A stretch of DNA of 64,000 nucleotides from a virus (lineage: Duplodnaviria > Caudoviricetes): positions 128,001 through 192,000 of the IMG/VR virus record IMGVR_UViG_3300020375_000001, one strand, 5' to 3'. A program made the translations under genes and the position numbers. Every line of letters begins with the position of its first letter. The stretch's first letter is position 1. A model generated the notes under the pieces. The model saw nothing but the letters and a program-made list of their open reading frames with translations, was not told where the DNA came from and did no database searches. Positions 23,563 through 62,880 of this stretch are shown here, piece after piece.

Positions 23563-25103
23563 CACCCCCATCCAAAGTGGACCATATCTTCATCCTCAAT
23601 TGAGGAGCCTACCGTTTGGGGTTTCCCCTACTCTACTCACTTCAATCACTTGTGTGACCAACCGATTATTACACCACGGTCGTCATTAGTCCGTACTATG
23701 TACGAATGTAGTTTTCGATGGCCTCTGAACACATCCCGTATCTAACGACTTAGGGACTTCGCTGCGTCGGTTATGTCTCCATTAAACGTTTTTACCCTGC
23801 CACCCTCTTCCATTACTGGGGATGGTATTGTGGCGTGTTTCCACCCACAAGTGGTAGTTTAATAGATTATAGACATTTTCCCGCAATTAGGTAGGTTTGT
23901 CTTAGTCGTATTACTACGACTGGGAGACCCTATGTTAATTGGTTTTAAATTATCGAGATATTAAGTTTAGCTAACTCGAGTGAAAGCATCTTCCTAAGTC
24001 TTCTTCTATCCAAATCAAGATAGTTCAATACTACTAGCGGAATCTGTTTACTATTAGCTAACTTTACTTTATCCCAATCCCGCATCTTGGTTTCCTCTAA
24101 AGCTTCGTAACCACCGAACCGTTCTACTGGCTCATAGTGTTGGATACCGTGAAACTCAATGAGTACTTCAAATTTGGGTAGAAAGAAATCGTATCTAAAT
24201 AACGACCCGTCGAATTTATATTCTCTTTTAAACTCAATCCCGTTTACTTCCAAGATATGTGCTATCTGACGCTCACCTAAAGATTCCCTACATCTAGGGC
24301 AACCCTGTTTCTGGGAAACGTGTCGGTTAGGATTAGTTTTAAAAGGACCATGTCCTTTACAGACCACCGTTATAGGTGTCTTGTTATTGACATACTCGAC
24401 TCTGTCGTAATTGTAGATATGACCATGTACCTGTTGTGCCTCAGCTATAAAATCTTCTAAAGTCTTTTTAGTCGACTCACGATAGCAGGCTGGACACCCA
24501 GAACCATTTAGGTGTACCCTAGCCTTTTGATGGAATGTCCCATGTTTGAAACACCCAATCTTTACGGTTTCGGTATAACCCCTGAAATCAAGGTTTTGGT
24601 AACAGTACTTGTTGCCATGTACTAACTTAGCTTTTTCTAGGAACTTCCCTTTATCCATTATGGCTTCCGAAGTCGCACACGTTGGACAATTGGTCCCCAA
24701 CTTGTAATGATTATAGGGCTTTACTTTAAAATCCCCATGCTCCCTACAGGTAACGATAATAGGTGTATCGGTGTTACTAAACACCACCTTATCGTAGAGG
24801 TAGCGGTCACCGTGTTGTTCTTTAGCCAATTTAATAAAATCATCTTTAGTAAATTTACCGGAACAAGCCAAACAACCTTTAGAGCCTCTAACTAAGTAAC
24901 ACGGCTTGGTTATATATTCACCGTGTTCCATACAACGAACTTTAATAGGTTTCTTAGAACCTAAGTATTTTGACTCCGAAAAATCTAATGAGTCATTATA
25001 CATTTCTTTCATCTTGTCGTAGAATTCTTTCTCTCTACGTTTAAAACCTTTTAACATAATTCATATCTCATGGATATTATTCACATAAGATATGTTGCTT
25101 TTT
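23563..25103 (-). mobile_element. Group I self-splicing intron (1541 nt) carrying a homing endonuclease
   Basis: P AAUUGCGGGAAA, Q CGCAGC, R GUUCAGAGGCCA, S AAGAUAUGGUCC. P3 CCUACC/GGUAGG, P7 GGCCA/UGGUC, P8 UCCUC-AAUU-GAGGA. IGS GUCUCCC pairs with exon GGGAGAU (U.G at the splice site). Ends in G. Splicing gives in-frame KQRGD-LPIRK. Confidence 0.92.
23945..25057 (-). CDS. Intron-encoded homing endonuclease (DUF723-like Zn repeats plus EDxHD/Vsr-like nuclease)
   Basis: Four C-x2-H...G-x1-2-C-x2-C repeats. C-terminal GERQIAHIL...RYDFFLP...LIEFHGIQH. Confidence 0.88.
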   Translation of the reverse strand: MLKGFKRREKEFYDKMKEMYNDSLDFSESKYLGSKKPIKVRCMEHGEYITKPCYLVRGSKGCLACSGKFTKDDFIKLAKEQHGDRYLYDKVVFSNTDTPIIVTCREHGDFKVKPYNHYKLGTNCPTCATSEAIMDKGKFLEKAKLVHGNKYCYQNLDFRGYTETVKIGCFKHGTFHQKARVHLNGSGCPACYRESTKKTLEDFIAEAQQVHGHIYNYDRVEYVNNKTPITVVCKGHGPFKTNPNRHVSQKQGCPRCRESLGERQIAHILEVNGIEFKREYKFDGSLFRYDFFLPKFEVLIEFHGIQHYEPVERFGGYEALEETKMRDWDKVKLANSKQIPLVVLNYLDLDRRRLRKMLSLELAKLNISII

Positions 25104-26516
25104 ATCTCCCCGCTGTTTGGCCATATGGTACACAACGCCATTGGCTTTGAACTTGCCATCCTTTCCTACTTTAGGAAGTCTGACGTGAACAGTCGAGGGC
25201 TTACCACCTAACGGAGTTAACTGAATAGAATAGTGGTCGTATTTGTTCGCCGCATCCATTACAGTTTCACGTTTAAAACTGGTTACTGCCACACCGGTGT
25301 TCTGAACATTCAGAACCATTGCCGCTACGTCCTTCTCGAGGATTTTACTGATGTAGTGGGCATCCGCTGTTTTAAGCGATGACTTAAGCATGTTTTTATC
25401 AAGCACGCCATCTAAGTCAGGGGCAGACCATTCAGGAATCTCAAGGTCTTTCTCTTTTACAGTAGCCTGCTCTTCAAGAGACCCAGAGCCATCGGTGGCT
25501 TCGATGGTTTTATACGTGTTGGCCAGACGTACGGCACGTTTGTATTCCGGTAATGACATCTGACCGGCATCGCGCAATTCTCTAGCCTTACCTTCAACCG
25601 CAATAGTGCGGTCATTAGTATACACATTGGTAGACAGGTCAAGGTCTTCTTCGGTGAAGTCTTCTTCGGTTGCATTGGTAATCGTCTCCAATTCCTGCAC
25701 GCGAGTCAGGTAACGAACAAAGGCTTTGTCAAACTCACCATTAATTTGCTCTTCGTCATCGCTTAACTTTTCGACCTTCCATGCCTGTAACTCACCCAAG
25801 TTCAGAATACTGAATTTACCCCCACGCATAAATACCAAGTTAACATACTTGATATTCTCACCAAGAATAGTATCCAGTTCATGAGTACCTTGAGTACAGT
25901 ACTGCCACAGGTAATAGAAGTACAGGGATTCCACTTTCTTAAACGGTTCAAGCGATTCAAGCGTGGGTTTCTTATTTAACATACGCAGTTCTTCCAGCTC
26001 AGGAAATACTTCAGGTATCTCCATGTGGATAAACTGGTTACGTAGAGTTTCTGCCGTTAGTTTTGCCACGGTATCCCAAACAGTACGATTTAGGTTACTC
26101 CACTCGTACCAGCTTTGTAGTGCATTACGGCTATAGCGGTAAATGTGGGGTAGCATGGCATAGTTTACAACAACCAAATTGTTTTGGTCCCGTACACCCT
26201 GCTCAAACTTCCGTAGCTGGCGAATCTTTCTCATTCGCTTGTGGTATATCTTTAAACGCGAACGCAGCTCAGAGCTACGCTGACGCGGTCTACCAAGGTC
26301 TAAGGTTAATTCTTCAATGTGCCATGCATGGCAAGACTCACGTCCATTAAACAGTGGACTGTCCTGGTCTGGACCATTTTCAGTCTCTTCGGTCGGGATG
26401 TGGTGTAGTAGCGATTCCTTTGGAAGAATCAGAGAAGCCTGTTCAAAGAACATTGGCGACTTCAACTTCTCGTAGGTTCGCACACCATACTTCCGATAAA
26501 ATTCTGGATAAAGCAT
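25104..26516 (-). CDS. rpoB: Virion RNA polymerase beta subunit (phiKZ gp178-like), exon 1
   Basis: N-terminus MLYPEFYRKYGVR typical of the family. Ends DGKFKANGVVYHMAKQRGD, comparable to RpoB [19 protein letters not shown]. Spliced product is 471+853 = 1324 aa. Confidence 0.88.
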
Positions 26517-26529
26517 TTGCTATTTCCTA

Positions 26530-26781
26530 TTAAAAGATGGTGTAATTTAGTAGGAACTGTTCTTCGCTTAGTTGTTCATAAAAGCCGTGGTCGTTCCTAA
26601 TGATGATAAATCCCGAAGGGACGTACACGGTGGCGGTGCCATCTGGAATCCGCACACCGCCATCTGGACCTTTGGTAATTCTACCTTTACCCCAAGCGAT
26701 AATCTCTTCCTGCACTTCTGTATCGAACTCAACTTTACGGAACGATACAAGGTTAGCTTTTAAAGTAGCCTGCATTTTCAT
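26530..26781 (-). CDS. Small hypothetical protein
   Basis: 83 aa; TAATG overlap with the upstream gene. Confidence 0.65.
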   Translation of the reverse strand: MKMQATLKANLVSFRKVEFDTEVQEEIIAWGKGRITKGPDGGVRIPDGTATVYVPSGFIIIRNDHGFYEQLSEEQFLLNYTIF

Positions 26782-27188
26782 TATTTAAGCTCCCGGTTAA
26801 CATTCCAACCAAATTTAATCTGCTTAGCTGGTATATCTTTAGTATAACCAAATGTACCAAAGCGATTAATGGAGTCCAACCAATTCCCCTTACCGGAGTC
26901 TTCGTCAGCTACCGCAAATTCAGGTAGTAGCCCACTAACTTCGAAGACATCAAAGTCCCCGAACTTTTTAAGGAACTCATGGTGCAAATTAACGTTACCG
27001 CTATGGGCAAGGTAAATGGCTTTCTTCTCAGGTGCAGGACCGTACCCAGATGGGTCAGTATCTAAACTTAACCCGTCCTTAAGTATGGATTCTCGATTCT
27101 TTCTAGGGCTATAGTGGTAGAAGACATCTTTCTTAAACTGTCGTTCTTCCTTAATGGCCTCTAGACCTTCGGCTAGTATGGGTCTCAT
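26781..27188 (-). CDS. Putative ADP-ribosyltransferase-fold protein (Tpt1/KptA-like)
   Basis: FYHYS..NRESILKDGL, AIYLA and terminal DIPAKQI match the ART core strands. TAATG-coupled to vRNAP beta-prime. Confidence 0.55.
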   Translation of the reverse strand: MRPILAEGLEAIKEERQFKKDVFYHYSPRKNRESILKDGLSLDTDPSGYGPAPEKKAIYLAHSGNVNLHHEFLKKFGDFDVFEVSGLLPEFAVADEDSGKGNWLDSINRFGTFGYTKDIPAKQIKFGWNVNRELK

Positions 27189-28825
27189 TATTTCAATACC
27201 TTTTCTGAACCGAAAGTTAAACCACGTAACAACCAGTCGATAGTATCCGTACCAAACATCTGTAATCCACCACGAGGGTCGATGTAACCAGTAGGCTTAT
27301 CAAAATACTTGTGAATTTCACTTTCGGCATCATCTGACATCAGGAAGTTACAACTTACTGTATCACCATCGAAGTCAGCACCTAGACCTACGAGTCGGTT
27401 AGGGTTAACACCAATGGTATCGAAGAACGGAACATTGAAGCGCGGGAACTCGTAAGCAACGTGTTCATCGTCCATCGGTTCCCACTGGTCATCAAGTTCA
27501 CGTAAGATGTCACCTTCAACCGTAGTCTTTAAATAGACCGTCGAAGGATACGTTGAACCTAGGCCGGTAATTGGATATCGGGTAATGGTACACGTCAAAC
27601 GATTCCAGTGACGATACCCGGCGATGTACAGGAACTCAGCATACGTTACCGGGTGACACTTTTCTTTTTGGCTAGGTACCAATCGGTCAAACTCACCAGG
27701 GTTTAATAGACGGAAGTGTTGCTCGTCTTTAAAAATCAGAGCAAGATACTTACCTTCTACCAAGATAGGCTTATGGCGAATGGAAGCATTCCCGTAATAG
27801 TTGATGAACTTCTCGAGTCCTTCTACTGTGGTCCAGCGGTCCATGGTTTCCGTGGTAACATTAACCCAGACAGTTTTCTTTGTCTTGCGGTCTACCAATG
27901 GAACATTCGTACCGCCAGTAAATATTTTCGAGAGGTGTCCTTTAGATAACCATGAAGTAGTTAAAGGTAGAACCCCTTTCGCCGTTTGGTATAAACCCAC
28001 TACGGTGTCAGTGGAGTCGATACTACGTGGACTGTCCAAGTCGTCGGTACCAACATCCATGGAAGTGATTACGTTACGTGTACCGTTGAAGATACGACGT
28101 GAACCCCACTTAGCCTGAATGAAACCTTTCTTACCAGTGATAAACGTTTCAAGATGCTCGTAGATAGCATTGATGGCTAACTGGAGCGAGTAGCGCGAAC
28201 GGTCATAGACCGGGTCGTTATTGTTATTAACGTTCACGGCTATCGTATTGGCAACGGAGAGTACTTTACGATACATGTCGTTAATCTCATCTTCTTGGGT
28301 ATACCCGTCTTCTGAGACTTGTACTTCACGTAACCCAGCAGGCAACACTAACCATTTATTGGTGGTGGCCGTGTCACGATATTTTTCAATTACGCTAATC
28401 CGTAGATTACGCTGGTCAGACTCCGTCTTCTTAAAACGCAGGTCTTTAAAATGGGACATGAAGAAAGCGTAACCAGTTTCCCCCTCTACTTCGCTAGATG
28501 CAACGAAGTCTTTCTCACCAGCAACCCATTTGGCATATTTCTTACCGGCAAGGATTTCACCATACAGTCCTTTAATACGAACAAGGTGGCGATGGATTAA
28601 AGGGTGGAGTACTTGTACTTTCAAGTCGATGAAACTAAAACGGTTACTTCTTTCCGTGGTACCAGACGCACCGAAGATAGAAACAGAGTAGAGTCCATCT
28701 TCATGGAAGTTTGTAGTGCCGCCATCGTATATATCTGAAACCCTAACAGGTTTCATGGATGCAGTATTCTGACCCGTCAAGTTTAACAGTTGAACATTGA
28801 ACGGCATCTTGCCTATTGCTGTCAT
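27188..28825 (-). CDS. rpoC: Virion RNA polymerase beta-prime subunit (phiKZ gp180-like)
   Basis: Catalytic GADFDGD, ITRYP, GLYSVSIFG and RNVIT motifs. Confidence 0.95.
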   Translation of the reverse strand: MTAIGKMPFNVQLLNLTGQNTASMKPVRVSDIYDGGTTNFHEDGLYSVSIFGASGTTERSNRFSFIDLKVQVLHPLIHRHLVRIKGLYGEILAGKKYAKWVAGEKDFVASSEVEGETGYAFFMSHFKDLRFKKTESDQRNLRISVIEKYRDTATTNKWLVLPAGLREVQVSEDGYTQEDEINDMYRKVLSVANTIAVNVNNNNDPVYDRSRYSLQLAINAIYEHLETFITGKKGFIQAKWGSRRIFNGTRNVITSMDVGTDDLDSPRSIDSTDTVVGLYQTAKGVLPLTTSWLSKGHLSKIFTGGTNVPLVDRKTKKTVWVNVTTETMDRWTTVEGLEKFINYYGNASIRHKPILVEGKYLALIFKDEQHFRLLNPGEFDRLVPSQKEKCHPVTYAEFLYIAGYRHWNRLTCTITRYPITGLGSTYPSTVYLKTTVEGDILRELDDQWEPMDDEHVAYEFPRFNVPFFDTIGVNPNRLVGLGADFDGDTVSCNFLMSDDAESEIHKYFDKPTGYIDPRGGLQMFGTDTIDWLLRGLTFGSEKVLK

Positions 28826-28899: not shown

Positions 28900-31800
28900 A
28901 TGTCCGACGATATAGACATCGATGATGACGGCTTTGATAGCTTTGATGATTTCGATGCTCCTGATTTCGACGGTGATGTCGGGGGCGGTAATGAATCCCG
29001 CACGCCGATTACGGCTGCAGCCAGTAGCTTCACTGAAGCGGCAACTAACGACTTAATGAGCGTTAATGCGGCTAAGCAGATAGCTCGTAAGGGATTACCC
29101 GAAGGCTATGGCGAGGCCATGGACCTCGTTGATGAGACTGCAGGCCGGGCTTCTGACCTATACGATAAAGCCGAGAAAAGGTTAGAACCTGCTATCAAAT
29201 CCACGAAACAGGCAACCCGTGGATTGCTTCCTAAGGCAGAGGGTATTCTTCCTAAAAAACTATACGAACGTATGGCTAAATGGTCGGAGGATGATGATAA
29301 CAGTGGTCCTCGAGTCAATGCCGATGAGGAATCTATTTCCACTGCACTAAGTAGTATCTTCACTACGCAGTTAGAACAACAGGAAGCCGACAAGCAAGAA
29401 CAAACCGTCCGTGACACATTAAAAGGTGAAGTGGAAGGGGAGCGACACGAGCAGAACATTGACAAGTTGAGTCTGATTCAAAAGTCGATGTCGCGCTTGG
29501 TTGGCTATCAAGATTCTGTTACTGCAGCGTACCAAAAGAAATCATTGGACCTACAGTTTCGTCATTACTTCGCAGCGCGTGATTTACTTAAATTACAAAC
29601 CGCAAGTAATGCTGATGTTATCACAGCCTTAAATGACATCAAAACAAACACAGGTTTACCTGACTGGATTAAAACCCAGACTAACGAAAACTTTAATGCA
29701 ATGCTCTCTCAACGGTTGATGGGTGGTACCGTTGATACTGTTAGTGACTACATGGGCAATTTCCGTGAGAACCTTTTTAAGGGTATTGAGACGAAAGTCA
29801 TGGGTACTGTGGGAGAGGTTGCTGACGGTATTCAGGAAATTACTGGCGGTATCAGTCAGATGAATGAAGCCCAAGCAATGATGGCGGATTTCGATGATGG
29901 ACCAACTAAAAGCGGGGCGGTGCAAGCTGCCGAGATGGCTGGTGGCATTGGTGGTAGTACGGTTGCTAATAAAATTATTAACTTTATTGGTAGGCGGATG
30001 CGTAAGGAAACTGGCGCAACTAAAGCCATTGCTGAAAAGGGTATTGAAGCATCTAACTTTGTCAGAGGCTTCGACGGTAGATTGAAGGAGTTTATAGATA
30101 CTGCGGATAGTCGCGATGGAATGCTAGGTGTAGCTGGACGCTTCTTACAGGACGTTGCACCTACAATGAATACTACGCCAAGTGTACTGCAAAATCTTTC
30201 TAAGGATGCTACAGCTTCGGTTGAGTGGGATTTATTGTCTCGCCGTACTTTGGTGGAAATCATTCCTGAGTATTTAGCACGCATTACTCAAAACACCGAA
30301 TCTATGGCAACGGGTAAAGCTGCTGAGAAGATGGTGTACAGTAAGCAATCTGAATCTTTCATGACAGAATCGGATGCTATTGCTGAAGCTACTGATAAGT
30401 TTGTGCGTCGTGATGAGATTACGGAATACCGTAGTCGTTCTGATGAGTTACTGAATAGACTGTTTAGTGGTGCACGTATTTCACCTGAAGCCCGTATGGC
30501 AATGTCTGAACAGTTACACACCGACCTGAGTCGTGGTTGGAACTTTGATGTACGTCGCTATGTAAACGCCGATGCCTTTGAATCACACCTAGACCCTGAT
30601 GCTGTTGCTGAACTACGTGACTTTTTCCGCGATAAGTTTAAAGCGAAAGAGAAGGTCGTTGACGGTAAGAGTAGTTGGGATTTTGAGTACGGTGAGCAAA
30701 CCGGTAAGTTACTTGGTAGCTTGCAGAATCAGGGTAAGAATCTTCAAAATCGAATCCCTGAAATGCAAAGTAGTATCAATGAGTTCGTTGCCACTGGCGA
30801 TAAAGATTTGTTGCGCGCTACGGGGTGGATTGACTCTACCTCAGGTAGAGACCAGTTTAACTTACAGCGCATGAATAACCTGATGACCGGTCGTCTTGAA
30901 TTAGATGACTTACAGTCGGAATGGGAACGTGACCGCTTGAAAGAGGAACGGGGTGCTGAGAAAACCAAGTGGCAAGAGCGCGACCGTGGACAATGGGTAG
31001 TTGACGATAACAGTACTGTGGAACCTGTTAAGAGCGAGCGGGCTGAGAAATCTAACCTACCACCTGTCATGAGCAGTGAAGACCGTAGTATTATCTCTGG
31101 TCTGAATGCAATGATGGGGCAGTTAAGTACTACCAGTAAAGCAAGCCTTGACCGTTTAGCGGAAATGGCTACTAACAATGTAGAAGCTTCTGAATTCAAC
31201 AGTCAACAGGTACAAATCCTGACTGAGATTCGTGACCTACTGATTGCACAGCAGATGACTGGCTTGTCCAGTGAAGACGCAGCAATGGGTGCGGAGCTAT
31301 TGAAGAAGTTTACTGCGGCGGCTAACTGGGAACAACCTAAATGGTACAATACCCTTACTAGTGGCATTGTCGATGGTGCTAAAGCTGGCGCGGGGATGTT
31401 AAGTAGTTACTACGGTGCACTTGGTAATGCTGCGTCATCCACTGTCGGTTTCTTGAAAGAGAAGGGTACTGCAGCTTGGGGTAAAATCCAAGAAAAAGGT
31501 GCCGCACTGTCAGATGTCTACATAAACGGTATGCAAATGCCTGCACTGCGTGCACAGCTTATAAAGGCTGGTCGCTATGTGGACTCGCAGACGGGGAAGG
31601 TAATTACTAGCTTAGACGATATCAGTGGCGAGGTCATTGATAAAGTAACCGGCAATGTAGTTATCTCAGCTGAGGATTATCGTGGGGGTCTATTTGATAA
31701 CCGTGGCAATACCCTGTTCGCTAAACTAGGTGCAGGAGCTCAGAAGTTAATCTCTGGCGGAATGGAAGCTCTGGGTAGCTACTATGGCTTTTTAGGTAAC

Positions 31801-34800
31801 ACTGCTGGTAATGTACTCACATGGGGCAAGGAGAAGATTACGGACCTTGACCGTAAACTAAGAACTGAGAGTGACGTATACGTTAAGAACCGTATGGGCG
31901 ATGGTCCTGCATTATTACGTACTAAGTTGTTGCGTGGTGCATACTTCGATATTGAAGGTAATCCTATCTTCTCTGTCGGGGACATTACGGGACCAGTCTT
32001 TGATGAAGACGGTAACCAGTTGATTAGTGACGAGGATATCTCTGCTGGCTTAGTTGACCCTCAAGGGGATGACATTAAGACTGCGGGTATTCTAGGCAAC
32101 GGGTTAGGGATAGTTGGTGCTGGCATCGGCCTTGCTAAGAAAGGTGCGAGTAAAGCATTCAGTGCTTTGAAAACTTACTATTCTGGTCTGGGTCAAATCT
32201 CAGGTAGTCTACTTGACAAGCTAAAGCATGGCTTTTCTGGGTTTGGTGGTTCGGAAGTTGCAGAGACAATGAATGTCACGGCGACCAACGTATACCTTAA
32301 TGGTAACATCATTCGGGAAGGTGAACCTTCGGTAGCTGAAAAGGCTGGTACCACTGTAAGCTCTGCTGTATCTACGGTACGTGAAAAGACCGGAGAGATG
32401 AGCGAGCAGTTGAAGGCCGCTACTGCATCCGTAAAAGAGAGGGCATCTGCTGAACTAAACACCGCCACAGCGAAAGCTTCAGAACTTACTGGGGCAGCAA
32501 AGGCCAAAGCGAAGGAAACCAAAGACAGTCTACTTGGTCGTGAGATTGGGGAAGACACGACACTGGTTGCTGACGCTAACGGTAATGTAAGCCTTAAGAC
32601 TGAAGAAGGGGTTATTCCTGCTGGGGATGGTTCTACCAAAGGTTACATGGCTGCATTACTTGCTTACTTCCATCGTCAGAGTCAACAAGATTCAGCCGAT
32701 GGTGATGGCGATGGTCTACGTGATGGTGGTTGGCGCTCCAAACTCTTTGGTCGTAAGAAAACCGAAGACGACTCCACTGAGGACAAACCTAAAGAAGGGA
32801 ACCGGAAAGCTGGTAAGGGTATGTTAGCTGGAATGGCTGGCTTACTTGGACTTGGCGGAGGGTCTGATGAAGATAGTGGGGATGGCGACAGTTTCGCAGG
32901 TGACGTTGCTGCTGAAGTTGCAGGGGAGTACGCTGCAGATAAACTAGGTGGTAAAGGTGGTGACAGTGATAGTGGTGGTAGAAGACGTACCCGTACGCCG
33001 AAAGGTAAGGGGAATCTAGCATCGCGAGCGTGGGGTGCAATTAAAGGTGCTGGTAGTAGCGTTAAGGAAATGGCTACCAATGCTAAAGGTCGTAGTATAA
33101 TGGGGAATGCGAAAGCGTTAACCACAGGTACGGCTGGATTAGTTGCAGGCCTTGGTAAAGGCATTAAGTCATTCGGTGGTAAACTTACCTCTGGTCCTGG
33201 TTCTAGCCTGCTTAAAAAAGCAGGGCTATTTGGGGCAAGGGCTGGCCTAGGTTTACTGGGTGGTACCTTAGCGGCGGTAGGTGGGGTGGCGGCTGCCCCT
33301 ATAGTAGCAAGTGCATTGGCTATAGCGGGTACTGCATGGACAGCCTACGAAGTGGCAAGTGGTGTGGGTGGATTCCTGTTCCGACGTTCTGAGGCAGAAC
33401 CTATTGAGCGTTATCGTTTCTTACAGTACGGTTTAAATCCGGATAACAAAGAGCATCGTGTGTTCCTGCGTATCTTGGAAGCTGGCGCTGCTGATAACGT
33501 TGAGTACATGGGACAGGATGGTACTAATAACCGTATCCTACTAGGTGACGACCCTGAGTGGTTGTACGAGGCTATGGATTACATTGGTATCGATGCACAT
33601 ACGGAATACGAGGAAGACCCTGAAAATGGTGAGCGTTTTGGCAAGTGTTACAAATGGTTCAAGAATCGTTTTGAGCCTGTGTTCTTATTACACCATGGCC
33701 ATGCTCGTCAGTTGGATGAAGACGTAGACCTACTTGACATTGACGATGAAATGGACGATGAACTGAAACATAGGTTTGTTGACCGTTCGTATTATCCCAA
33801 TAACGGTGAGAGTCAATCGCCATACTTTGTGGATACGCCATTCATCGAAGGGTATACCATCGGCTACGATGACATCGATGCGCAACGTGACGCTCTATTA
33901 GCTGAATATAAAGCGTATCAAGAAGGGGACAAGGAAGAGTCGGGTATTGGTTCTAAAATCAAGTCGGCGTTAATGATGGCTACTCCGGTAGGCATGGCAA
34001 TGAAAGCCGCTGAAACATTAACGAGTAAAGATGCTGGTACTGGTACTAAGGATGAGGAATCATCTGGAAGTATTAGTAAGATTCTTAAGGGTGGCCTTAT
34101 GGCTGTTCCTGGGGTAGGCATTGGAGCAATGTTGTACAACATGTTCTCCGACGACGATGAGGAAGTGAAGGTGAAGGTGCCACAGTTTAAAACTGAAGAC
34201 GGCAGTGACATCTCTCACTTGGATGCTATACGCTTCTACCAATACGGTGTGGGTAAACTTACTGATAGAACCGCTGCATTACTCTACCGTTTAGAGCGTG
34301 CAGTCTCTGCTGACCTTGCATACGCAGGGGATACAGTAGAGTGGTCTGGTAATCTGAAACGTATCTGGCACGATATGGCAACCGCCCTTGGCTACTCTAG
34401 AAGGGATGGTGCTGCTAGAGGGGAGTGGAACAAATGGTTTACCATTACCTTCCTACCAGTGTTTTCAGCTTACGCCGCTGCATTAAGAAGTAAGTCCGTT
34501 AACGAAATTCACAGTCCTAAGCTGTCGAAGAAGGATATGTGGGAAGTGGCGAAAGTCATTGTTCTTGACATAGCCCCTCGCTTTGCGGGTATGTTGAGAC
34601 GTGGACATGAAGCGGTGGCTAACGACGACATGGTTACTAAACTATTGTTAGCGTTAGAAGAACAGGCTAAGGTGAAAGAGAAAGAGTTTGAGCTAACTAC
34701 CCCTAACACTAAAGGCCCTGTGGTCGATGGTGTTGCTCCGGTAATGAAGTTGACTAGTACTGTTACTAGCGCAGCGTCTAAAGGGGATACGGAAGCGAAG

Positions 34801-35979
34801 ACATCTACTCCTACATCTACTCCGACAACAGTCAAGCGGAAACTGGAGACTACCAAAACTGCTACAGGCGGTGACGGGTTCGTTGTACCTGCGGATGGAA
34901 ACATTAGTTCCCCGTATGGTAACCGAGTCCACCCAATTGACGGTACAAAGAAATTCCATGCTGGCATTGATATCGCCGGACCGGAAGGTACTCCTATCGT
35001 GGCCAGTGCAAGTGGCGTTATCAGTCGTCGTGATTACTCACGTGACTATGGTAATGTTATCTACATTGAAAACGATGATGGTACACATAGCCGTTACGCA
35101 CACATGTATCGCTTTGAACCTGGCTATCGTGTTGGGGACAGAGTAGAGCAAGGTGCTAAAATTGGTGAGATGGGGTCGACAGGTGCGTCTACTGGTTCAC
35201 ACCTACACTTCGAAGTACGTAAAGATACGTATGATAAAAACTCAGCCCTAAACCCTCTGGACCTGTTTAACGGGGACAAGGCTACAAAGGCAAGAGAAGA
35301 AGTGGCCAAGGCAGTGAAAGCTGCTGAGGATGAGAAGAGTGGTAAGATAGATACAAGCCTTGAAGGTGAGAATACTATTGCATCCACTGTGAAAGGTGAA
35401 GCGACTAACCACGATGCTAAACGAGAAGCTACGGCTAGGGTGAATACTCCTCTGGTGAAACCTGCTAACATGGTACCATCTACTCCGGTAATGGAAACTG
35501 TTAAGGTAGGCTACACTGAGGATGAGGTGGCTACATTAGCACCGACTCAACCTGTTACGGCTAAGAAGTTACCAACAATTAACCATGCCCCGGTTACACC
35601 GGTACGGAAACCTAAGCAGGCAGTTGAAGGTGAGCTAATCGTTGAAGCTGAGGTGTTACAGCAAAAACGTGCACAACTTGGTCAAGAAGTTGCAAATGCG
35701 AAAAGTGAGCAACAGCTCGAGTTAATCGGGATGATACTGCATCGTCAGTTAGAGTCTAACTATCGCATGGAAGAACTAATGGCTAAGGTGGTTGATAACA
35801 CAATGGCTACAGCCGAAAGGGTAACGCCTGTTACACAACAAGCACAGAAAGACACCGGTAGCGTAAAGCCTAAACCAGATGCAAAAGCTGCTACTGGTAA
35901 AGAGCTAAACGCACTCTTCGCTAGTCGAGAGAAAACTAAGCCACTTTCGCACCCTCTACTTATGGGTCGAAACAAGTAA
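28900..35979 (+). CDS. Tail tape measure protein (gp181-like) with C-terminal M23 peptidase
   Basis: 2359 aa, divergent from gp180-like. YQKKSLDLQFRHY motif. M23 motifs HAGID, YAHM and STGSHLHFE at about 34880-35270. Confidence 0.9.
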   Translation: MSDDIDIDDDGFDSFDDFDAPDFDGDVGGGNESRTPITAAASSFTEAATNDLMSVNAAKQIARKGLPEGYGEAMDLVDETAGRASDLYDKAEKRLEPAIKSTKQATRGLLPKAEGILPKKLYERMAKWSEDDDNSGPRVNADEESISTALSSIFTTQLEQQEADKQEQTVRDTLKGEVEGERHEQNIDKLSLIQKSMSRLVGYQDSVTAAYQKKSLDLQFRHYFAARDLLKLQTASNADVITALNDIKTNTGLPDWIKTQTNENFNAMLSQRLMGGTVDTVSDYMGNFRENLFKGIETKVMGTVGEVADGIQEITGGISQMNEAQAMMADFDDGPTKSGAVQAAEMAGGIGGSTVANKIINFIGRRMRKETGATKAIAEKGIEASNFVRGFDGRLKEFIDTADSRDGMLGVAGRFLQDVAPTMNTTPSVLQNLSKDATASVEWDLLSRRTLVEIIPEYLARITQNTESMATGKAAEKMVYSKQSESFMTESDAIAEATDKFVRRDEITEYRSRSDELLNRLFSGARISPEARMAMSEQLHTDLSRGWNFDVRRYVNADAFESHLDPDAVAELRDFFRDKFKAKEKVVDGKSSWDFEYGEQTGKLLGSLQNQGKNLQNRIPEMQSSINEFVATGDKDLLRATGWIDSTSGRDQFNLQRMNNLMTGRLELDDLQSEWERDRLKEERGAEKTKWQERDRGQWVVDDNSTVEPVKSERAEKSNLPPVMSSEDRSIISGLNAMMGQLSTTSKASLDRLAEMATNNVEASEFNSQQVQILTEIRDLLIAQQMTGLSSEDAAMGAELLKKFTAAANWEQPKWYNTLTSGIVDGAKAGAGMLSSYYGALGNAASSTVGFLKEKGTAAWGKIQEKGAALSDVYINGMQMPALRAQLIKAGRYVDSQTGKVITSLDDISGEVIDKVTGNVVISAEDYRGGLFDNRGNTLFAKLGAGAQKLISGGMEALGSYYGFLGNTAGNVLTWGKEKITDLDRKLRTESDVYVKNRMGDGPALLRTKLLRGAYFDIEGNPIFSVGDITGPVFDEDGNQLISDEDISAGLVDPQGDDIKTAGILGNGLGIVGAGIGLAKKGASKAFSALKTYYSGLGQISGSLLDKLKHGFSGFGGSEVAETMNVTATNVYLNGNIIREGEPSVAEKAGTTVSSAVSTVREKTGEMSEQLKAATASVKERASAELNTATAKASELTGAAKAKAKETKDSLLGREIGEDTTLVADANGNVSLKTEEGVIPAGDGSTKGYMAALLAYFHRQSQQDSADGDGDGLRDGGWRSKLFGRKKTEDDSTEDKPKEGNRKAGKGMLAGMAGLLGLGGGSDEDSGDGDSFAGDVAAEVAGEYAADKLGGKGGDSDSGGRRRTRTPKGKGNLASRAWGAIKGAGSSVKEMATNAKGRSIMGNAKALTTGTAGLVAGLGKGIKSFGGKLTSGPGSSLLKKAGLFGARAGLGLLGGTLAAVGGVAAAPIVASALAIAGTAWTAYEVASGVGGFLFRRSEAEPIERYRFLQYGLNPDNKEHRVFLRILEAGAADNVEYMGQDGTNNRILLGDDPEWLYEAMDYIGIDAHTEYEEDPENGERFGKCYKWFKNRFEPVFLLHHGHARQLDEDVDLLDIDDEMDDELKHRFVDRSYYPNNGESQSPYFVDTPFIEGYTIGYDDIDAQRDALLAEYKAYQEGDKEESGIGSKIKSALMMATPVGMAMKAAETLTSKDAGTGTKDEESSGSISKILKGGLMAVPGVGIGAMLYNMFSDDDEEVKVKVPQFKTEDGSDISHLDAIRFYQYGVGKLTDRTAALLYRLERAVSADLAYAGDTVEWSGNLKRIWHDMATALGYSRRDGAARGEWNKWFTITFLPVFSAYAAALRSKSVNEIHSPKLSKKDMWEVAKVIVLDIAPRFAGMLRRGHEAVANDDMVTKLLLALEEQAKVKEKEFELTTPNTKGPVVDGVAPVMKLTSTVTSAASKGDTEAKTSTPTSTPTTVKRKLETTKTATGGDGFVVPADGNISSPYGNRVHPIDGTKKFHAGIDIAGPEGTPIVASASGVISRRDYSRDYGNVIYIENDDGTHSRYAHMYRFEPGYRVGDRVEQGAKIGEMGSTGASTGSHLHFEVRKDTYDKNSALNPLDLFNGDKATKAREEVAKAVKAAEDEKSGKIDTSLEGENTIASTVKGEATNHDAKREATARVNTPLVKPANMVPSTPVMETVKVGYTEDEVATLAPTQPVTAKKLPTINHAPVTPVRKPKQAVEGELIVEAEVLQQKRAQLGQEVANAKSEQQLELIGMILHRQLESNYRMEELMAKVVDNTMATAERVTPVTQQAQKDTGSVKPKPDAKAATGKELNALFASREKTKPLSHPLLMGRNK

Positions 35980-59584: not shown

Positions 59585-60766
59585 TTAACTTACGGAATAC
59601 CCATTAAGAATGTTTTCCCATTCTTTCCAAGTTAGTTCTACATCGCCAAAAGGTGCAGGAATAACAACATCCTCGCCTTCTTCTGGCCAATCTACAGTTG
59701 GTAAATAGTTTACCAAGTTCAATTCCAATTCCTGACGTTGCTCGTCAGTAAGTTCGATTAGTTTCATTTTACGAAACTCCTTCTCAGGCACGTCTTTGTG
59801 ACGGACAGGGTTGAACTTAAGAGATGGATATTTCCACTCCACAAATTCAATGTCCTTCACCTTACCCAGCAGCTCAGAAAAACGCCCCGTGGTTATCGGG
59901 TAGAATTTGCGAGCCAGTTTGAAATCTACCGCATCTTGCAGCATGGCAAAAGTGATGGGGCTCAGACCAGCATTGTCATAAACAGAACTCCACTTGTAAT
60001 TCAGCTTACGTAACATGGCCTCCATCAGTGCAGTGTCGTTGAAGTTAAATTCGTCACTAATGATTAGCAGCGCACTACAACCATTAACCCCGCCACTTAC
60101 AATGACACGCCAGCCATCTGGTCCAATTTTACCCAGCGGCTCTTTTACTTTACAAATGGTCAGTGCACCTTGCGACAGAGTTTCACGCGGCAAAGGGGAC
60201 AGTCGTCCACCACCCAAGGTCATCCATTCATCTGTACCATACGGCAACATCATCTCACGGTCGCTTGTGACGCCAACTAACATACCAGTGCGGTAAGTCA
60301 TGCCGCGACCTATAAAGATGCGGTGTGTGTCCACTACGGGCGTTATATCGACAGTCTCAGCGTCGATTACCAGACCACCATCGTCAAAGCCAGATACCGG
60401 TGTAGTTTTACTTGGTGGGAAACTGGTACCAATTGAATTACTGTATTCGGCAACTGTTAATGGCTCACCAATCTCTACCCAGTTCTTTTCCAAAGCCAAT
60501 TCATTAATCTGACGTTGCCAGTCTCCAGACAACCCTATGATTTGGTCACTGTCGAAAAATACGTTGGGTTTCATCCATATCAGGCAGTCCATATAACGGA
60601 CCGATGGGATGTCTTCTTTCAGTTCGGGTGAAAGAGAGTATCTGACGGCAAAGTCTAACTCGTCGATTTTGTCAAACAACTTGTGGTTATCGGGCAGGTC
60701 ACCCAATCCCACGAAACGAACGCGTCCACGTGCAATGTTTGTAGTTGCAGTATTTTCAGTTTGCAT
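59585..60766 (-). CDS. Hypothetical protein (393 aa)
   Basis: Long ORF behind a candidate early promoter. Confidence 0.8.
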   Translation of the reverse strand: MQTENTATTNIARGRVRFVGLGDLPDNHKLFDKIDELDFAVRYSLSPELKEDIPSVRYMDCLIWMKPNVFFDSDQIIGLSGDWQRQINELALEKNWVEIGEPLTVAEYSNSIGTSFPPSKTTPVSGFDDGGLVIDAETVDITPVVDTHRIFIGRGMTYRTGMLVGVTSDREMMLPYGTDEWMTLGGGRLSPLPRETLSQGALTICKVKEPLGKIGPDGWRVIVSGGVNGCSALLIISDEFNFNDTALMEAMLRKLNYKWSSVYDNAGLSPITFAMLQDAVDFKLARKFYPITTGRFSELLGKVKDIEFVEWKYPSLKFNPVRHKDVPEKEFRKMKLIELTDEQRQELELNLVNYLPTVDWPEEGEDVVIPAPFGDVELTWKEWENILNGYSVS

Positions 60767-60845: not shown

Positions 60846-60893
60846 TTCAAAAAAGATAGGGCCGAAGCCCTATCCCTAAAACATGCTATTGTT

Positions 60894-61445
60894 TTATGGC
60901 GCTGGTTCTTCAGCTGCCGCTGCTTCTGCTGCAGCTACTGCTGCGTCATGGTCAGCCTTAGCTTGGTCAGCTTCTTCTTGTGTCCAGACGTACCAGTTCG
61001 AACACTGAAGGTCAAGACGGTTAGGGTGCCAATCTTGGAAAACTTCAAGTTCTTCCGTAGTCAGTTGGAACATTGGTGCATCGTACAGCATGGTAACTGC
61101 TGTAGGGTATTCTGTTAGCGTACCGTCGGCGATTTCTTCCAAAGGTGGCAGCGGTTGTTTAACCGTACCAAGCTCAACCCGCATGAAGAAAGTGTTCCAG
61201 TGATTACATGCCACACTATGACCTTGCTTCATCATATACAGCGCTTCTGTGAAGCTCATTGCGGTAGTAGGTTTGTAAGCAGCATCGAACACGTCTTTTG
61301 GTGACCATGAAACATACCCGTCCGGATAGGTTACTTCATAACCTTCTGTGCCTTCTGGATGACCGTCCATTGATGGATACTGCGGAGTAGCCGCAACAAC
61401 CATAGGAACTGCATCGACTTGTTTAATACCAACGTATTTAGACAT
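60894..61445 (-). CDS. DUF2829/Tad2-like domain fusion protein (putative anti-defence sponge)
   Basis: N-domain KYVGIK.VDA.PM...GYEV.YPDGYVSWSPK.VF.AY; C-domain MSFTEAL..MKQG..V....WN...W.PN..DL...NW. Confidence 0.65.
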   Translation of the reverse strand: MSKYVGIKQVDAVPMVVAATPQYPSMDGHPEGTEGYEVTYPDGYVSWSPKDVFDAAYKPTTAMSFTEALYMMKQGHSVACNHWNTFFMRVELGTVKQPLPPLEEIADGTLTEYPTAVTMLYDAPMFQLTTEELEVFQDWHPNRLDLQCSNWYVWTQEEADQAKADHDAAVAAAEAAAAEEPAP

Positions 61446-61496: not shown

Positions 61497-62483
61497 ATGC
61501 TTTCAGGTCTTAAGATGATTAGCTTAGGTATCGTAGCCGAGCATAAAAAACCATCTCAAAAAACAGCAATGATACACCCTGCGGAAGTATTGACTGAGAT
61601 AGACGGGGAATTAAGAGCCTTACCTATCACACTATATGCCGCTGGGGTTGACGGTGAGAACCGTGAATACCAAGTGAATATAAAGGCAAATACCGCTTTA
61701 GAATGTGAGTGGCTATCGCTGTGTGAACATCGACAGACTGCCCCAGATATACGAAGAGGCGAACAAGTAATAATTTGGGAAGTCGAGGGTTCAACCGATG
61801 GCAGGTACTATTGGAGTACTTTAGGTAGGGATTCTAATCTTCGCCGTTTAGAAACTGTTCTCTGGGCGTTTAGTAATATATCTGACCCAGAAGAAAACGT
61901 AGAGGCGCTTAGTTATGAGAATGCCTACACGGTAGAAGTATCTACTCACCATAAGCAAATTACTATCCGTACCAACAAGTACGATGGGGAACCGTTTGCC
62001 TACGTAATACAGCTTAATACCAAAGACGGTACCTTTACTGTACAGGATGATGTGGGTAACTACATGCAGTTAGATTCGGCTGAGACGACAATTGACTTTA
62101 CTAATAAAGACAAGACTCATCTCAGACTGAAGAAAAAGGATATCTTCGGCTATGCACCAGATAGCATGTATCTTCATGCTGTGAACACCATGGAGCTAAA
62201 GTGTAAAGACTTTATCTTGGAAGCAGAGAACTCCATTACTACTAAGACAAAGACGGCCACCCATGAAGCTAAGACGATGTTACATAAAGCAGATAACATC
62301 ACTATGGAAGCAACGGCAGTTAAGATTGATGCCCCCAATACCGAATGTACGGGGTTGCTTAAGTGTGCAGAATTAGATGCTGGTAATGGGTCATTGACTG
62401 CGGACTCAAGCGGTATTAAAGCTAAAGCAGCGGAGTTTGAAGCTGCCCCTACTGCCCCTGGTGGTAAGTGGCACATGCCTTAA
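61497..62483 (+). CDS. Baseplate central spike/needle (phiKZ gp164-like)
   Basis: SLGIVAEHK, TAPDIRRGEQV..W and YYW motifs; C-terminal beta-helix-like repeats. Confidence 0.8.
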   Translation: MLSGLKMISLGIVAEHKKPSQKTAMIHPAEVLTEIDGELRALPITLYAAGVDGENREYQVNIKANTALECEWLSLCEHRQTAPDIRRGEQVIIWEVEGSTDGRYYWSTLGRDSNLRRLETVLWAFSNISDPEENVEALSYENAYTVEVSTHHKQITIRTNKYDGEPFAYVIQLNTKDGTFTVQDDVGNYMQLDSAETTIDFTNKDKTHLRLKKKDIFGYAPDSMYLHAVNTMELKCKDFILEAENSITTKTKTATHEAKTMLHKADNITMEATAVKIDAPNTECTGLLKCAELDAGNGSLTADSSGIKAKAAEFEAAPTAPGGKWHMP

Positions 62484-62495
62484 ACCAAAAAAAAT

Positions 62496-62518
62496 AGGAG
62501 GGGCATTGCGCCCCTCCT
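62496..62518. terminator. Bidirectional terminator
   Basis: AGGAGGGGC-ATTGC-GCCCCTCCT between convergent genes. Confidence 0.8.
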
Positions 62519-62535: not shown

Positions 62536-62880
62536 TTAACCAATATCAACCTGCTCCATCTCAGTTCGACTGATGTGGTAACTAAGTTGATTGCTACGAG
62601 ATTTCGTAAGTCCGTGTTCCCTTAATAGCTGTGTCCAGTTGCCATGTTCAGAGTCTCCCTCCAAGTTAACAACCAACGCAGCCGTCCCCAGCTGCTTAGC
62701 AATATTAAAGACACGTCGGAAGTAATACTGGCAACGCATGAAGTTTTTATCAATACGCTGTAGTGTTACGGTAATCGCGCCTGCAATGGAGCCTTCCACC
62801 AAAAATCCTTCACTCAAAGAAGTTGGTTTCAGAGCCCCGTTATTAATTAATTGTTCTTGCAGTGTTGTTTCTTTTGGCAT
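62536..62880 (-). CDS. Hypothetical protein
   Basis: 114 aa; AAAGGT SD. Confidence 0.7.
   Translation of the reverse strand: MPKETTLQEQLINNGALKPTSLSEGFLVEGSIAGAITVTLQRIDKNFMRCQYYFRRVFNIAKQLGTAALVVNLEGDSEHGNWTQLLREHGLTKSRSNQLSYHISRTEMEQVDIG

What the first reader, a model, noticed from the sequence alone, without database searches (positions are those of the whole stretch)
60894..61445. Tad2/DUF2829-like sponge fused to a second small domain
The C-terminal half matches DUF2829 (F-EAL--K-G--V---WN...W-P---DL----W), the family of the anti-Thoeris sponge Tad2, which binds gcADPR and in some homologues cyclic dinucleotides (established). The N-terminal KYVG-K-V-A...GY-V-YPDGY-SWSPK-VF--AY domain is a separate module. 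It has its own terminator and strongly biased codons, as expected for a stoichiometric sponge. Inference: a two-pocket, broad-spectrum inhibitor of signalling-based immunity.
Basis: partly seen in the sequence, partly recalled or inferred. Interest (0 to 1): 0.7.

Follow-up and report, generated by a model that had tools for sequence, protein, structure and literature searches.

The report
Tad2 sponge with strand-swap N-module
This jumbo-phage gene encodes a divergent member of the Tad2 family of proteins that soak up bacterial immune alarm molecules. It is joined to a small front module that is not a known second sponge but a widespread, unnamed dimerising domain found on at least five, perhaps six, unrelated sponge families.

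Summary
The ORF at 60894-61445 (-) is real: 183 aa, a Shine-Dalgarno site, its own hairpin+U6 terminator, and codon adaptation in the top ~7% of the genome. Residues 63-153 are a Tad2-like domain (Pfam PF11195, 33.9 bits against a cut-off of 25), and the 24 best structural hits are all solved Tad2 proteins. The gcADPR-contact motif is altered: GWNG->HWNT and WLASQTD->WHPNRLD.

Residues 1-59 are a separate module, but not Acb4 (PF13876). They have no Pfam or NCBIfam model. A profile of the module finds 4,964 cluster representatives. In the best 150 it precedes Tad2 (51), Sequestin (21) or Acb4 (19), or stands alone (15). It is homologous to the N-terminal domain of 'RyR Tad' (Pectobacterium phage CB1 gp68; E 2e-14). 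That domain is a beta1-swapped dimer in the crystal and was inactive alone against type I Thoeris.

A four-copy model supports self-association through beta1 and the Tad2 pocket loops (0.61; best control 0.00).

Verdict: a Tad2-type sponge with a dimerising clamp. The 'two-pocket' reading is only partly supported. This is a new member of a known kind, and the scan has met the same module before on other DNA.

The parts
60894..61445 (-). Whole gene, 183 codons plus TAA stop (protein P0001)
   Evidence: Orthologues at 96%, 66% and 65% identity share the same start. Same position in a related 219-kb phage contig.
61452..61456 (-). Shine-Dalgarno-like AAGGA, 6 nt before the ATG
   Evidence: Read directly from the sequence. 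AAAAGGACAA is conserved upstream of the orthologue in L003.
61269..61445 (-). N-module, aa 1-59. Unnamed small beta/alpha module: beta1 2-9, beta 11-16, variable loop 17-33, beta 34-39, beta 45-49, helix 50-56. Homologous to the RyR Tad N-terminal domain.
   Evidence: Profile match 99.9 bits on the genome. 4,964 representatives. AF2 pLDDT 94.1. CB1 gp68 aa 5-67 match the profile at E 2e-14. No Pfam or NCBIfam model.
60987..61259 (-). Tad2-like (DUF2829) domain, aa 63-153: helix alpha1 65-73, W83-N84 motif, W139-x5-D145-x5-W151 motif
   Evidence: PF11195 at 33.9 bits, E 4.7e-8. Foldseek ranks 1-24 are all Tad2 structures, probability 0.92-1.00, TM by target 0.44-0.60.
61047..61169 (-). Long insertion within the Tad2 domain, aa 93-133. 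It sits where HgmTad2 carries its cyclic-dinucleotide-binding insertion. Conserved inside the clade, poorly modelled.
   Evidence: 91 residues span 72 profile positions. pLDDT 41-60. 56-68% identity to the two orthologues, like the rest of the protein. The HgmTad2 insertion is described in bioRxiv 10.1101/2023.11.15.567273.
60897..60983 (-). Ala/Glu/Asp-rich C-terminal tail, aa 155-183, predicted helix, clade-specific and poorly conserved
   Evidence: Helix 156-178 in the model. 31-34% identity to orthologues, which have shorter tails.
60849..60874 (-). Intrinsic terminator: 8-bp GC-rich stem, UUCG loop, U6 tail
   Evidence: (MFE -22.2 kcal/mol, z -4.3) and direct reading. Not listed by the pattern scan.

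Best explanation
The gene makes a Tad2-family sponge. The C-terminal domain (aa 63-153) assembles into a homo-oligomer, by analogy a tetramer. It sequesters a nucleotide-derived immune signal in pockets formed between protomers, so the host's effector (Thoeris-type or a related signalling defence) is never switched on. The N-terminal 59 residues are not a second sponge of a known family. [quoted passage not shown] In the model this clamp joins the same two protomers whose alpha1 helices and W139-D145 loops meet, so it would stabilise or pre-organise the ligand-binding pair. Shown: family membership by HMM and fold, homology of the N-module to the RyR Tad domain, and the module's recurrent fusion to unrelated sponges. 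Inferred: oligomer state, the clamp role, and the ligand. The pocket motif is altered here, so the ligand may not be 3'cADPR. I put about 0.7 on some immune signal and about 0.35 on type I Thoeris gcADPR specifically.
For: PF11195 scores above its cut-off. The 24 best PDB matches of the AF2 model are SPO1, Mod, Hgm and Spt Tad2. W83-N84 and W139...D145...W151 are kept; they correspond to HgmTad2 W21, N22, W87 and D93, which contact gcADPR. Every region except the tail is equally conserved among orthologues, and the gene keeps its place in a related 219-kb phage. The N-module is homologous to CB1 gp68 aa 5-67 (39.6 bits, E 2e-14). The paper reports that domain as a beta1-swapped dimer. Four-copy model: ipSAE 0.61 (median of 3 runs) against 0.00 for the best of 3 controls. 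That mark was reached by 20 of 30 proteins solved as pairs of one chain and by 1 of 23 solved as single chains. The runs agree in at least 50% of contacts, and partner pLDDT is at least 74. Confident contacts are aa 1-13, 52-60, 63-73, 124-126 and 138-147. Tad2 tetramers are solved, so part of this pass may reflect likeness to known complexes. Of the best 150 N-module proteins, 128 carry it at the very N-terminus. 51 have Tad2, 21 Sequestin and 19 Acb4. All of these sponges bind ligand at protomer interfaces. Own terminator, SD site and CAI in the 93rd-97th percentile fit high expression.
Against: The Tad2 match is weak: 33.9 bits against about 90 for canonical N-module-Tad2 proteins. Positions whose mutation abolished gcADPR binding in HgmTad2 are changed (S90->N142, T92->L144, G23->T85). 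About a quarter of tested sponge homologues inhibited none of seven systems. The clamp role does not explain stand-alone N-module ORFs (15 of 150; one is a complete ORF followed by convergent genes). It also does not explain why the most conserved motif (GY-V-YPDGY-SWSPK, aa 35-50) lies mostly outside the confidently predicted interface. Tad2, Acb4 and the RyR Tad C-domain oligomerise without the module. No experiment exists for this protein, and its host is unknown.
Confidence: 0.6

Rival explanations
1. The N-module is itself a ligand-binding or otherwise inhibitory unit, a further and still unrecognised sponge or anti-defence domain. The protein would then neutralise two different signals with two different domains.
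For: The 'guilt by fusion' argument that led to Sequestin applies even more strongly here. The module sits in front of Tad2, Acb4 and Sequestin, RyR Tad and Lockin (two sequences in Table S4 of Tal et al.). By automatic annotation it also precedes an Acb2/Tad1-hairpin family. It occurs alone as 75-100-aa ORFs and in tandem. The invariant aromatic and basic motif Y36, Y40, Y44, W47, K50 lies mostly outside the confident dimer contacts. The module was tested alone only against type I Thoeris.
Against: The only experiment on a homologue found no activity for the isolated domain, and full activity lay in the C-terminal domain. In the crystal it acts as a strand-swapped dimerisation element. A 59-residue domain needs most of its conserved aromatics for its core. 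The long loop that carries conserved R/Y/N/W in most family members is replaced in this clade. No ligand-binding fold was recognised.
Confidence: 0.22
2. The protein is not an immune-signal sponge in this phage. The Tad2-like domain has drifted to another role, for example a virion-associated or late function, or binding of a housekeeping nucleotide.
For: The gene lies back-to-back with a baseplate assembly gene (phrog_3216, E 1e-80), among structural and unknown genes rather than in a recognisable anti-defence island. Its codon adaptation resembles that of structural genes. The Pfam score is weak and pocket residues are altered. 19 of 84 tested sponge homologues had no activity.
Against: Every experimentally characterised DUF2829 protein in the papers read is a signal sponge. 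The fold match is specific to Tad2. W-N and W...D...W pocket anchors are kept. The N-module is found almost only with sponges. Gene order in phiKZ-like phages does not reflect timing in any simple way (own knowledge).
Confidence: 0.13
3. It is one of the published Acb4-Tad2 double sponges, as in Pasteurella phage Pm86, with the N-terminal part being Acb4.
For: tblastn hits of aa 1-57 fall on crAss-like genes annotated 'N4_gp49/Sf6_gp66 (pfam13876) family'. Acb4-Tad2 fusions are common and active against both Thoeris I and CBASS.
Against: PF13876 gives no hit on the protein, on aa 1-65 alone, or on the whole genome at E<=1. In proteins that have both, PF13876 covers aa 61-136 and the shared module is aa 1-54. 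There is no room for an 82-position Acb4 domain between aa 59 and the Tad2 domain that starts at aa 63.
Confidence: 0.02

Closest known systems
Tad2 (Thoeris anti-defence 2; Pfam PF11195/DUF2829): SPO1 gp34.65 (PDB 8SME/8SMF/8SMG, 8WJE), HgmTad2/AcrIIA7 (8KBI-8KBM), SptTad2 (8WJD), ModTad2 (8V3E, 9EIB)
   Same: HMM match above the cut-off. Same fold by Foldseek. N-terminal helix alpha1, W-N motif and W...D...W motif are kept. Predicted self-association runs through alpha1 and the pocket loops. A long insertion sits where HgmTad2 binds cyclic dinucleotides.
   Different: Weak score (33.9 bits). GWNG->HWNT and WLASQTD->WHPNRLD, so two of the three residues of the S90/T92/D93 triad are changed. 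It carries an extra N-terminal module and an Ala/Glu-rich C-terminal helix. No ligand or phenotype is known.
RyR Tad (Pectobacterium phage vB_PatP_CB1 gp68; bioRxiv 10.64898/2026.06.04.730250)
   Same: Homologous N-terminal module (E 2e-14), at the N-terminus of a gcADPR sponge. In the crystal it is a beta1-swapped dimer. Here beta1-beta1 and beta1-helix contacts are predicted with low error.
   Different: The C-terminal sponge domain is unrelated (RyR Repeat12-like helical domain, PF02026, against Tad2). The CB1 module has an insertion before the SWSP motif and lacks the Lys of SWSPK.
Canonical 'N-module + Tad2' phage proteins (PHROG 872; e.g. Escherichia phages IME10, PMBT57, VEc25; Pseudomonas phage Skulduggery)
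   Same: Same two-domain order and similar size. phrog_872 matches aa 1-153 at E 6e-21.
   Different: Only 26-30% identity. This clade replaces the conserved TRGxYNxxRGW loop of the module and the SQTD pocket motif. Its N-module is closer to those of crAss-like Acb4 proteins (up to 65% identity) than to those of most Tad2 fusions (46-47%).
Acb4-Tad2 and Acb4-Sequestin fusion sponges (Pasteurella phage Pm86; Pseudomonas phage Ab09 gp59)
   Same: Multi-module sponge proteins of phages. Many of them begin with the same N-module (Atlas clusters; P0018).
   Different: There is no Acb4 (PF13876) or Sequestin (PF21825) domain in this protein or anywhere in this genome.

Membership tests
Tad2 / DUF2829 (PF11195) | Match to the family HMM above the curated cut-off | tested here: met
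   33.9 bits against a cut-off of 25, E 4.7e-8, profile positions 1-72 of 73. 34.8 bits on the genome.
Tad2 / DUF2829 (PF11195) | Tad2 fold (alpha1 helix plus antiparallel sheet with extended loops) | tested here: met
   Foldseek ranks 1-24 are all Tad2 chains, probability 0.92-1.00, E 4.5e-3 to 9e-2, TM by target 0.44-0.60. The model has pLDDT of only 41-60 in the insertion.
Tad2 / DUF2829 (PF11195) | Homotetramer with ligand pockets between protomers | tested here: inconclusive
   The four-copy model supports self-association (0.61 against control 0.00; contacts include alpha1 and aa 138-147). It is a prediction, may lean on solved Tad2 tetramers, and does not fix the stoichiometry.
Tad2 / DUF2829 (PF11195) | gcADPR-contacting residues (HgmTad2 W21, N22, G23, W87, S90, T92, D93) | tested here: inconclusive
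   W83, N84, W139 and D145 are kept. G23->T85, S90->N142 and T92->L144. Other family members also vary at the S and T positions.
Tad2 / DUF2829 (PF11195) | Binding of an immune signal and inhibition of Thoeris, CBASS or Pycsar | not testable with these tools
   Needs binding assays and plaque assays.
Acb4 (PF13876, N4 gp49 / Sf6 gp66) | Match to the family HMM | tested here: not met
   No hit at E<=1 on the protein, on aa 1-65, or on the 207.7-kb genome. In P0009 PF13876 = aa 61-136, while the shared module = aa 1-54.
Sponge-associated N-module (= RyR Tad N-terminal domain; no database name) | Sequence-profile homology to the module of CB1 gp68 and of Acb4, Sequestin and Tad2 fusions | tested here: met
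   This protein scores 99.9 bits. CB1 gp68 aa 5-67 score 39.6 bits, E 2e-14, with the same profile. 4,964 representatives.
Sponge-associated N-module (= RyR Tad N-terminal domain; no database name) | Dimerisation through the first beta-strand | tested here: inconclusive
   Low-error contacts of aa 4-12 with aa 4-12 and 53-60 of a second copy. In the monomer model of the module aa 1-10 are not part of the sheet. Prediction only. The RyR Tad coordinates are not in the PDB copy searched.
Sponge-associated N-module (= RyR Tad N-terminal domain; no database name) | N-terminal position in front of a signal-sponge domain | tested here: met
   aa 1-59 precede Tad2. 128 of 150 best representatives have it at the N-terminus, and 91 of 150 domain hits are to Tad2, Sequestin or Acb4.

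The most novel reading that the evidence does not exclude
The ~60-residue N-module is an anti-defence part in its own right: a seventh sponge or an inhibitor that binds a signal or host protein not yet tested. Phages would bolt it onto Tad2, Acb4, Sequestin, RyR Tad, Lockin and possibly Acb2/Tad1-type domains, and also deploy it alone. Its 4,964 cluster representatives would then mark a large untapped set of anti-defence genes. The ~50 of 150 partners with no known family would be candidate new sponges. In this clade the altered Tad2 pocket would point to a signal outside the known gcADPR set.
Probability: 0.2. Interest if true: 0.75.

Novelty: new member of a known kind. Interest (0 to 1): 0.42.

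Why it matters
The gene itself is one more Tad2-family sponge, in an undescribed phiKZ-like jumbo phage. Two points are worth more. First, its pocket motif departs from the motif that the Tad2 literature describes as almost invariant, so this clade is a reasonable place to look for a new ligand specificity. Second, the front module has no Pfam or NCBIfam model. In the papers I read it appears only as 'additional extensions' or 'a fold with unknown function', yet it is a very specific flag for signal sponges. A census of what it is fused to would be a cheap way to find new sponge families. Testing whether it is only a clamp would settle why six kinds of self-sufficient oligomeric sponges keep acquiring it.

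Tried and rejected
- **Megablast of the locus against 50,697 phage records:** no match. The phage is only distantly related to known phiKZ-like phages (tail sheath 42% identity or less).
- **Acb4 reading of the N-terminus:** rejected.
- **Pfam and NCBIfam on the N-module and on stand-alone copies:** nothing.
- **Profile search of PDB sequences with the N-module:** only chance-level hits. The RyR Tad structure is therefore not in the copy searched.
- **Fold searches with the high-confidence N-module model:** no clear match.
  - Foldseek best E is 0.34.
  - VIA-align wide best is Z 3.9, rmsd 1.7 over 46 residues, to DUF1653 3be3_B. Chromo-, chromoshadow-, Tudor- and CarD-like small domains follow at Z about 3.
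  - These are below the level that means more than a common arrangement.
- **Promoter search:**
  - The sigma-70 scan gave fewer hits than shuffles.
  - The upstream 18-mer is unique in the window.
  - Alignment with the orthologous upstream region conserves only the SD region.
  - No timing class could be assigned.
- **Terminator scan:** it missed the hairpin, which folding confirmed.
- **Search for an N-module-bearing Tad2 among the proteins tested by Hadary et al.:** no 'SWSPK' string in the held supplements.
- **Other sponge domains or a second N-module in this genome:** none found.
- **Mapping of the HgmTad2 cyclic-dinucleotide pocket residues onto the insertion:** not attempted beyond anchors, because the alignment there is unreliable.

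Full report
**The gene.** The minus-strand ORF 60894-61445 encodes 183 residues. An AAGGA sits 6 nt before the ATG. Nineteen nucleotides after the stop lies an 8-bp GC-rich hairpin with a UUCG loop and six U; the wider fold is -22.2 kcal/mol with z -4.3. The simple pattern scanner missed this hairpin.

The window is part of a 207,748-bp IMG/VR virus record with direct terminal repeats. It is a jumbo myovirus with split multisubunit RNA-polymerase genes and a tail sheath at most 42% identical to phiKZ-like phages of Proteobacteria.

Against the codon usage of 215 ORFs of this genome the gene has CAI 0.836. That is the 93rd percentile, and the 97th among ORFs of similar size. ENC is 47.6.

The gene is divergent from a baseplate assembly gene (phrog_3216). 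It keeps exactly this position in a related 219-kb contig whose orthologue is 66% identical.

**The C-terminal domain.**
- Pfam PF11195 (Tad2-like, DUF2829) matches aa 63-153 at 33.9 bits (cut-off 25).
- An AlphaFold2 model (mean pLDDT 72) was searched against the PDB. Its 24 best matches were all Tad2 chains: SPO1 Tad2, ModTad2, HgmTad2/AcrIIA7 and SptTad2. Probabilities were 0.92-1.00 and TM by target 0.44-0.60.
- The domain is at the edge of the family, because canonical relatives score about 90 bits.
- In HgmTad2, gcADPR is held by W21, N22, G23 and by W87, L88, S90, T92, D93. The W21A/N22A and S90A/T92A/D93A mutants lose binding (bioRxiv 10.1101/2023.11.15.567273).
- Here the two motifs read H-W83-N84-T and W139-H-P-N-R-L-D145. 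The Trp/Asn and Trp/Asp anchors are kept, but the Gly, Ser and Thr are not.
- A bridging relative, P0119, reads WLPSHID, and other members also vary at these positions.
- The 41-residue insertion (aa 93-133) lies where HgmTad2 builds its separate cyclic-dinucleotide pocket. It is as conserved among the three orthologues as the core (56-68%) but poorly modelled.
- Tad2 homologues are now known to bind 3'cADPR, His-ADPR, N7-cADPR, cyclic dinucleotides or cUMP, in two kinds of pocket within the tetramer (bioRxiv 10.1101/2025.08.24.671296).
- About a quarter of tested sponge homologues hit none of seven systems.
- I therefore hold the family assignment firmly and the ligand loosely.

**The N-terminal module is not Acb4.** tblastn hits of aa 1-57 fall on crAss-like genes annotated as pfam13876. 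PF13876 is the Acb4 sponge family (bioRxiv 10.1101/2024.12.30.630793), and Acb4-Tad2 fusions are published and active against both Thoeris I and CBASS (bioRxiv 10.1101/2025.07.12.664507). That made 'Acb4-Tad2' the obvious reading, but it fails:
- PF13876 finds nothing in the protein, in aa 1-65, or in the genome.
- In proteins that carry both, PF13876 covers aa 61-136 while the shared KYVG...YPDGY-SWSPK stretch is aa 1-54.
- The stretch is thus a third, independent module. It has no Pfam or NCBIfam model.

**How widespread the module is.** A profile of 16 copies found 4,964 cluster representatives at E<=1e-3 in 1.84 billion proteins. The best 150 break down as follows:

| Feature among the best 150 | Count |
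|---|---|
| Module at the very N-terminus | 128 |
| Carry Tad2 | 51 |
| Carry Sequestin (PF21825) | 21 |
| Carry Acb4 | 19 |
| 100 aa or shorter (stand-alone) | 15 |
| Tandem copies | 3 |
| C-terminal part with no match to my partner-domain profiles | about 50 |

- One stand-alone copy is a complete ORF followed by convergent genes.
- Two Lockin homologues in Table S4 of Tal et al. begin with the module, and 94 'SWSPK' strings occur in their Sequestin table.
- ESM-Atlas shape neighbours of the module model are clusters annotated Sequestin, Tad2, Acb4, Acb4+Tad2 (711 members), Acb4+Sequestin, an Acb2/Tad1-hairpin family, and 75-95-aa hypothetical proteins.
- On a weakly resolved tree of the module, the partner changes 32 times against 44.1 +/- 1.8 for shuffled labels. 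The module is therefore shuffled freely among partners.
- This clade's module is closer to those of crAss-like Acb4 proteins (65%) than to most Tad2 fusions (46-47%).

**What the module does.** The best lead is a 2026 preprint (bioRxiv 10.64898/2026.06.04.730250). [quoted passage not shown] In the crystal this domain is domain-swapped: beta1 inserts into the other protomer to complete a five-stranded sheet. The fragment 1-86 alone did not inhibit type I Thoeris, while the C-terminal domain alone did.

I fetched gp68. Its aa 5-67 match my module profile at 39.6 bits, E 2e-14, so it is the same module.

- Folded alone with 94 relatives, the module has pLDDT 94.1. It shows three strands and a helix, and its first ten residues are left unpaired, as expected for a swapped strand.
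- No solved fold matches clearly.
- A four-copy model of the whole protein passed the controls. ipSAE was 0.61 against 0.00. That mark was reached by 20 of 30 proteins solved as pairs of one chain and by 1 of 23 solved as single chains. The runs agree in at least 50% of contacts, and pLDDT is at least 74.
- The confident interface joins aa 1-13 and 52-60 of the module, helix alpha1 (63-73), and aa 124-126 and 138-147 of two copies.
- In SPO1 Tad2, alpha1 interlocks the two dimers, and the pocket lies between non-dimeric protomers. The model therefore places the clamp on the pair that builds the pocket.
- Because Tad2 tetramers are solved, part of this pass may be memory of known complexes.

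**What remains open.** The clamp reading leaves three things unexplained. Tad2, Acb4 and the RyR Tad C-domain oligomerise without the module. The module is often encoded alone. Its most conserved motif (aa 35-50) lies mostly outside the confident contacts. An independent function, tested so far only against one defence system, is therefore a live rival. I give it about 0.2.

**Verdict.** This is a new, divergent member of a known architecture (PHROG 872). The scan has reported the same 'Tad2 plus unnamed module that recurs with several sponge families' on other DNA.

Noticed in passing
P0040, P0055, P0131 (representatives): Three N-module proteins of 188-200 aa share an unassigned C-terminal domain with a common ...FQ-G-x-KE-x-NG-x-x-EDL...RL-x-FQ motif and no Pfam hit. 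An ESM-Atlas cluster of 193-aa N-module proteins is annotated PF24729 Acb2_Tad1_hairpin, which may or may not be the same domain. About 50 of the 150 best N-module proteins have partners of no known family; they are candidate new sponges.
   Followed up: partly
P0020, P0139, P0141: Proteins with two N-modules in tandem and little else. This is hard to square with a pure 'clamp for a sponge domain' role.
   Followed up: no
window 62486-62518: A strong terminator-like hairpin on the minus strand (10-bp stem, 7 GC pairs, U8 tail) sits just after the end of the plus-strand baseplate gene and downstream of the minus-strand gene 62536-62880. The baseplate gene 61497-62483 is a lone plus-strand gene between minus-strand blocks.
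   Followed up: no
window 21001-28825: Split multisubunit RNA-polymerase beta-type genes (phrog_3148, phrog_2986), together with tail sheath 10563-12623 and a 2,359-aa ORF at 28900-35979. These mark an undescribed phiKZ-like jumbo phage (GC 44%, tail sheath at most 42% identical to known phages).
   Followed up: partly
window 59585-60766 (-): The 393-aa gene just downstream of the sponge gene has no Pfam or PHROG match, yet is conserved at the same place and size in the related 219-kb contig.
   Followed up: no
phage record PP889499.1 (hit H28): A Klebsiella N4-like phage gene carrying the N-module is annotated 'anti-CRISPR protein'. This is probably inherited from the AcrIIA7 label of DUF2829, which Li et al. 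could not reproduce.
   Followed up: no
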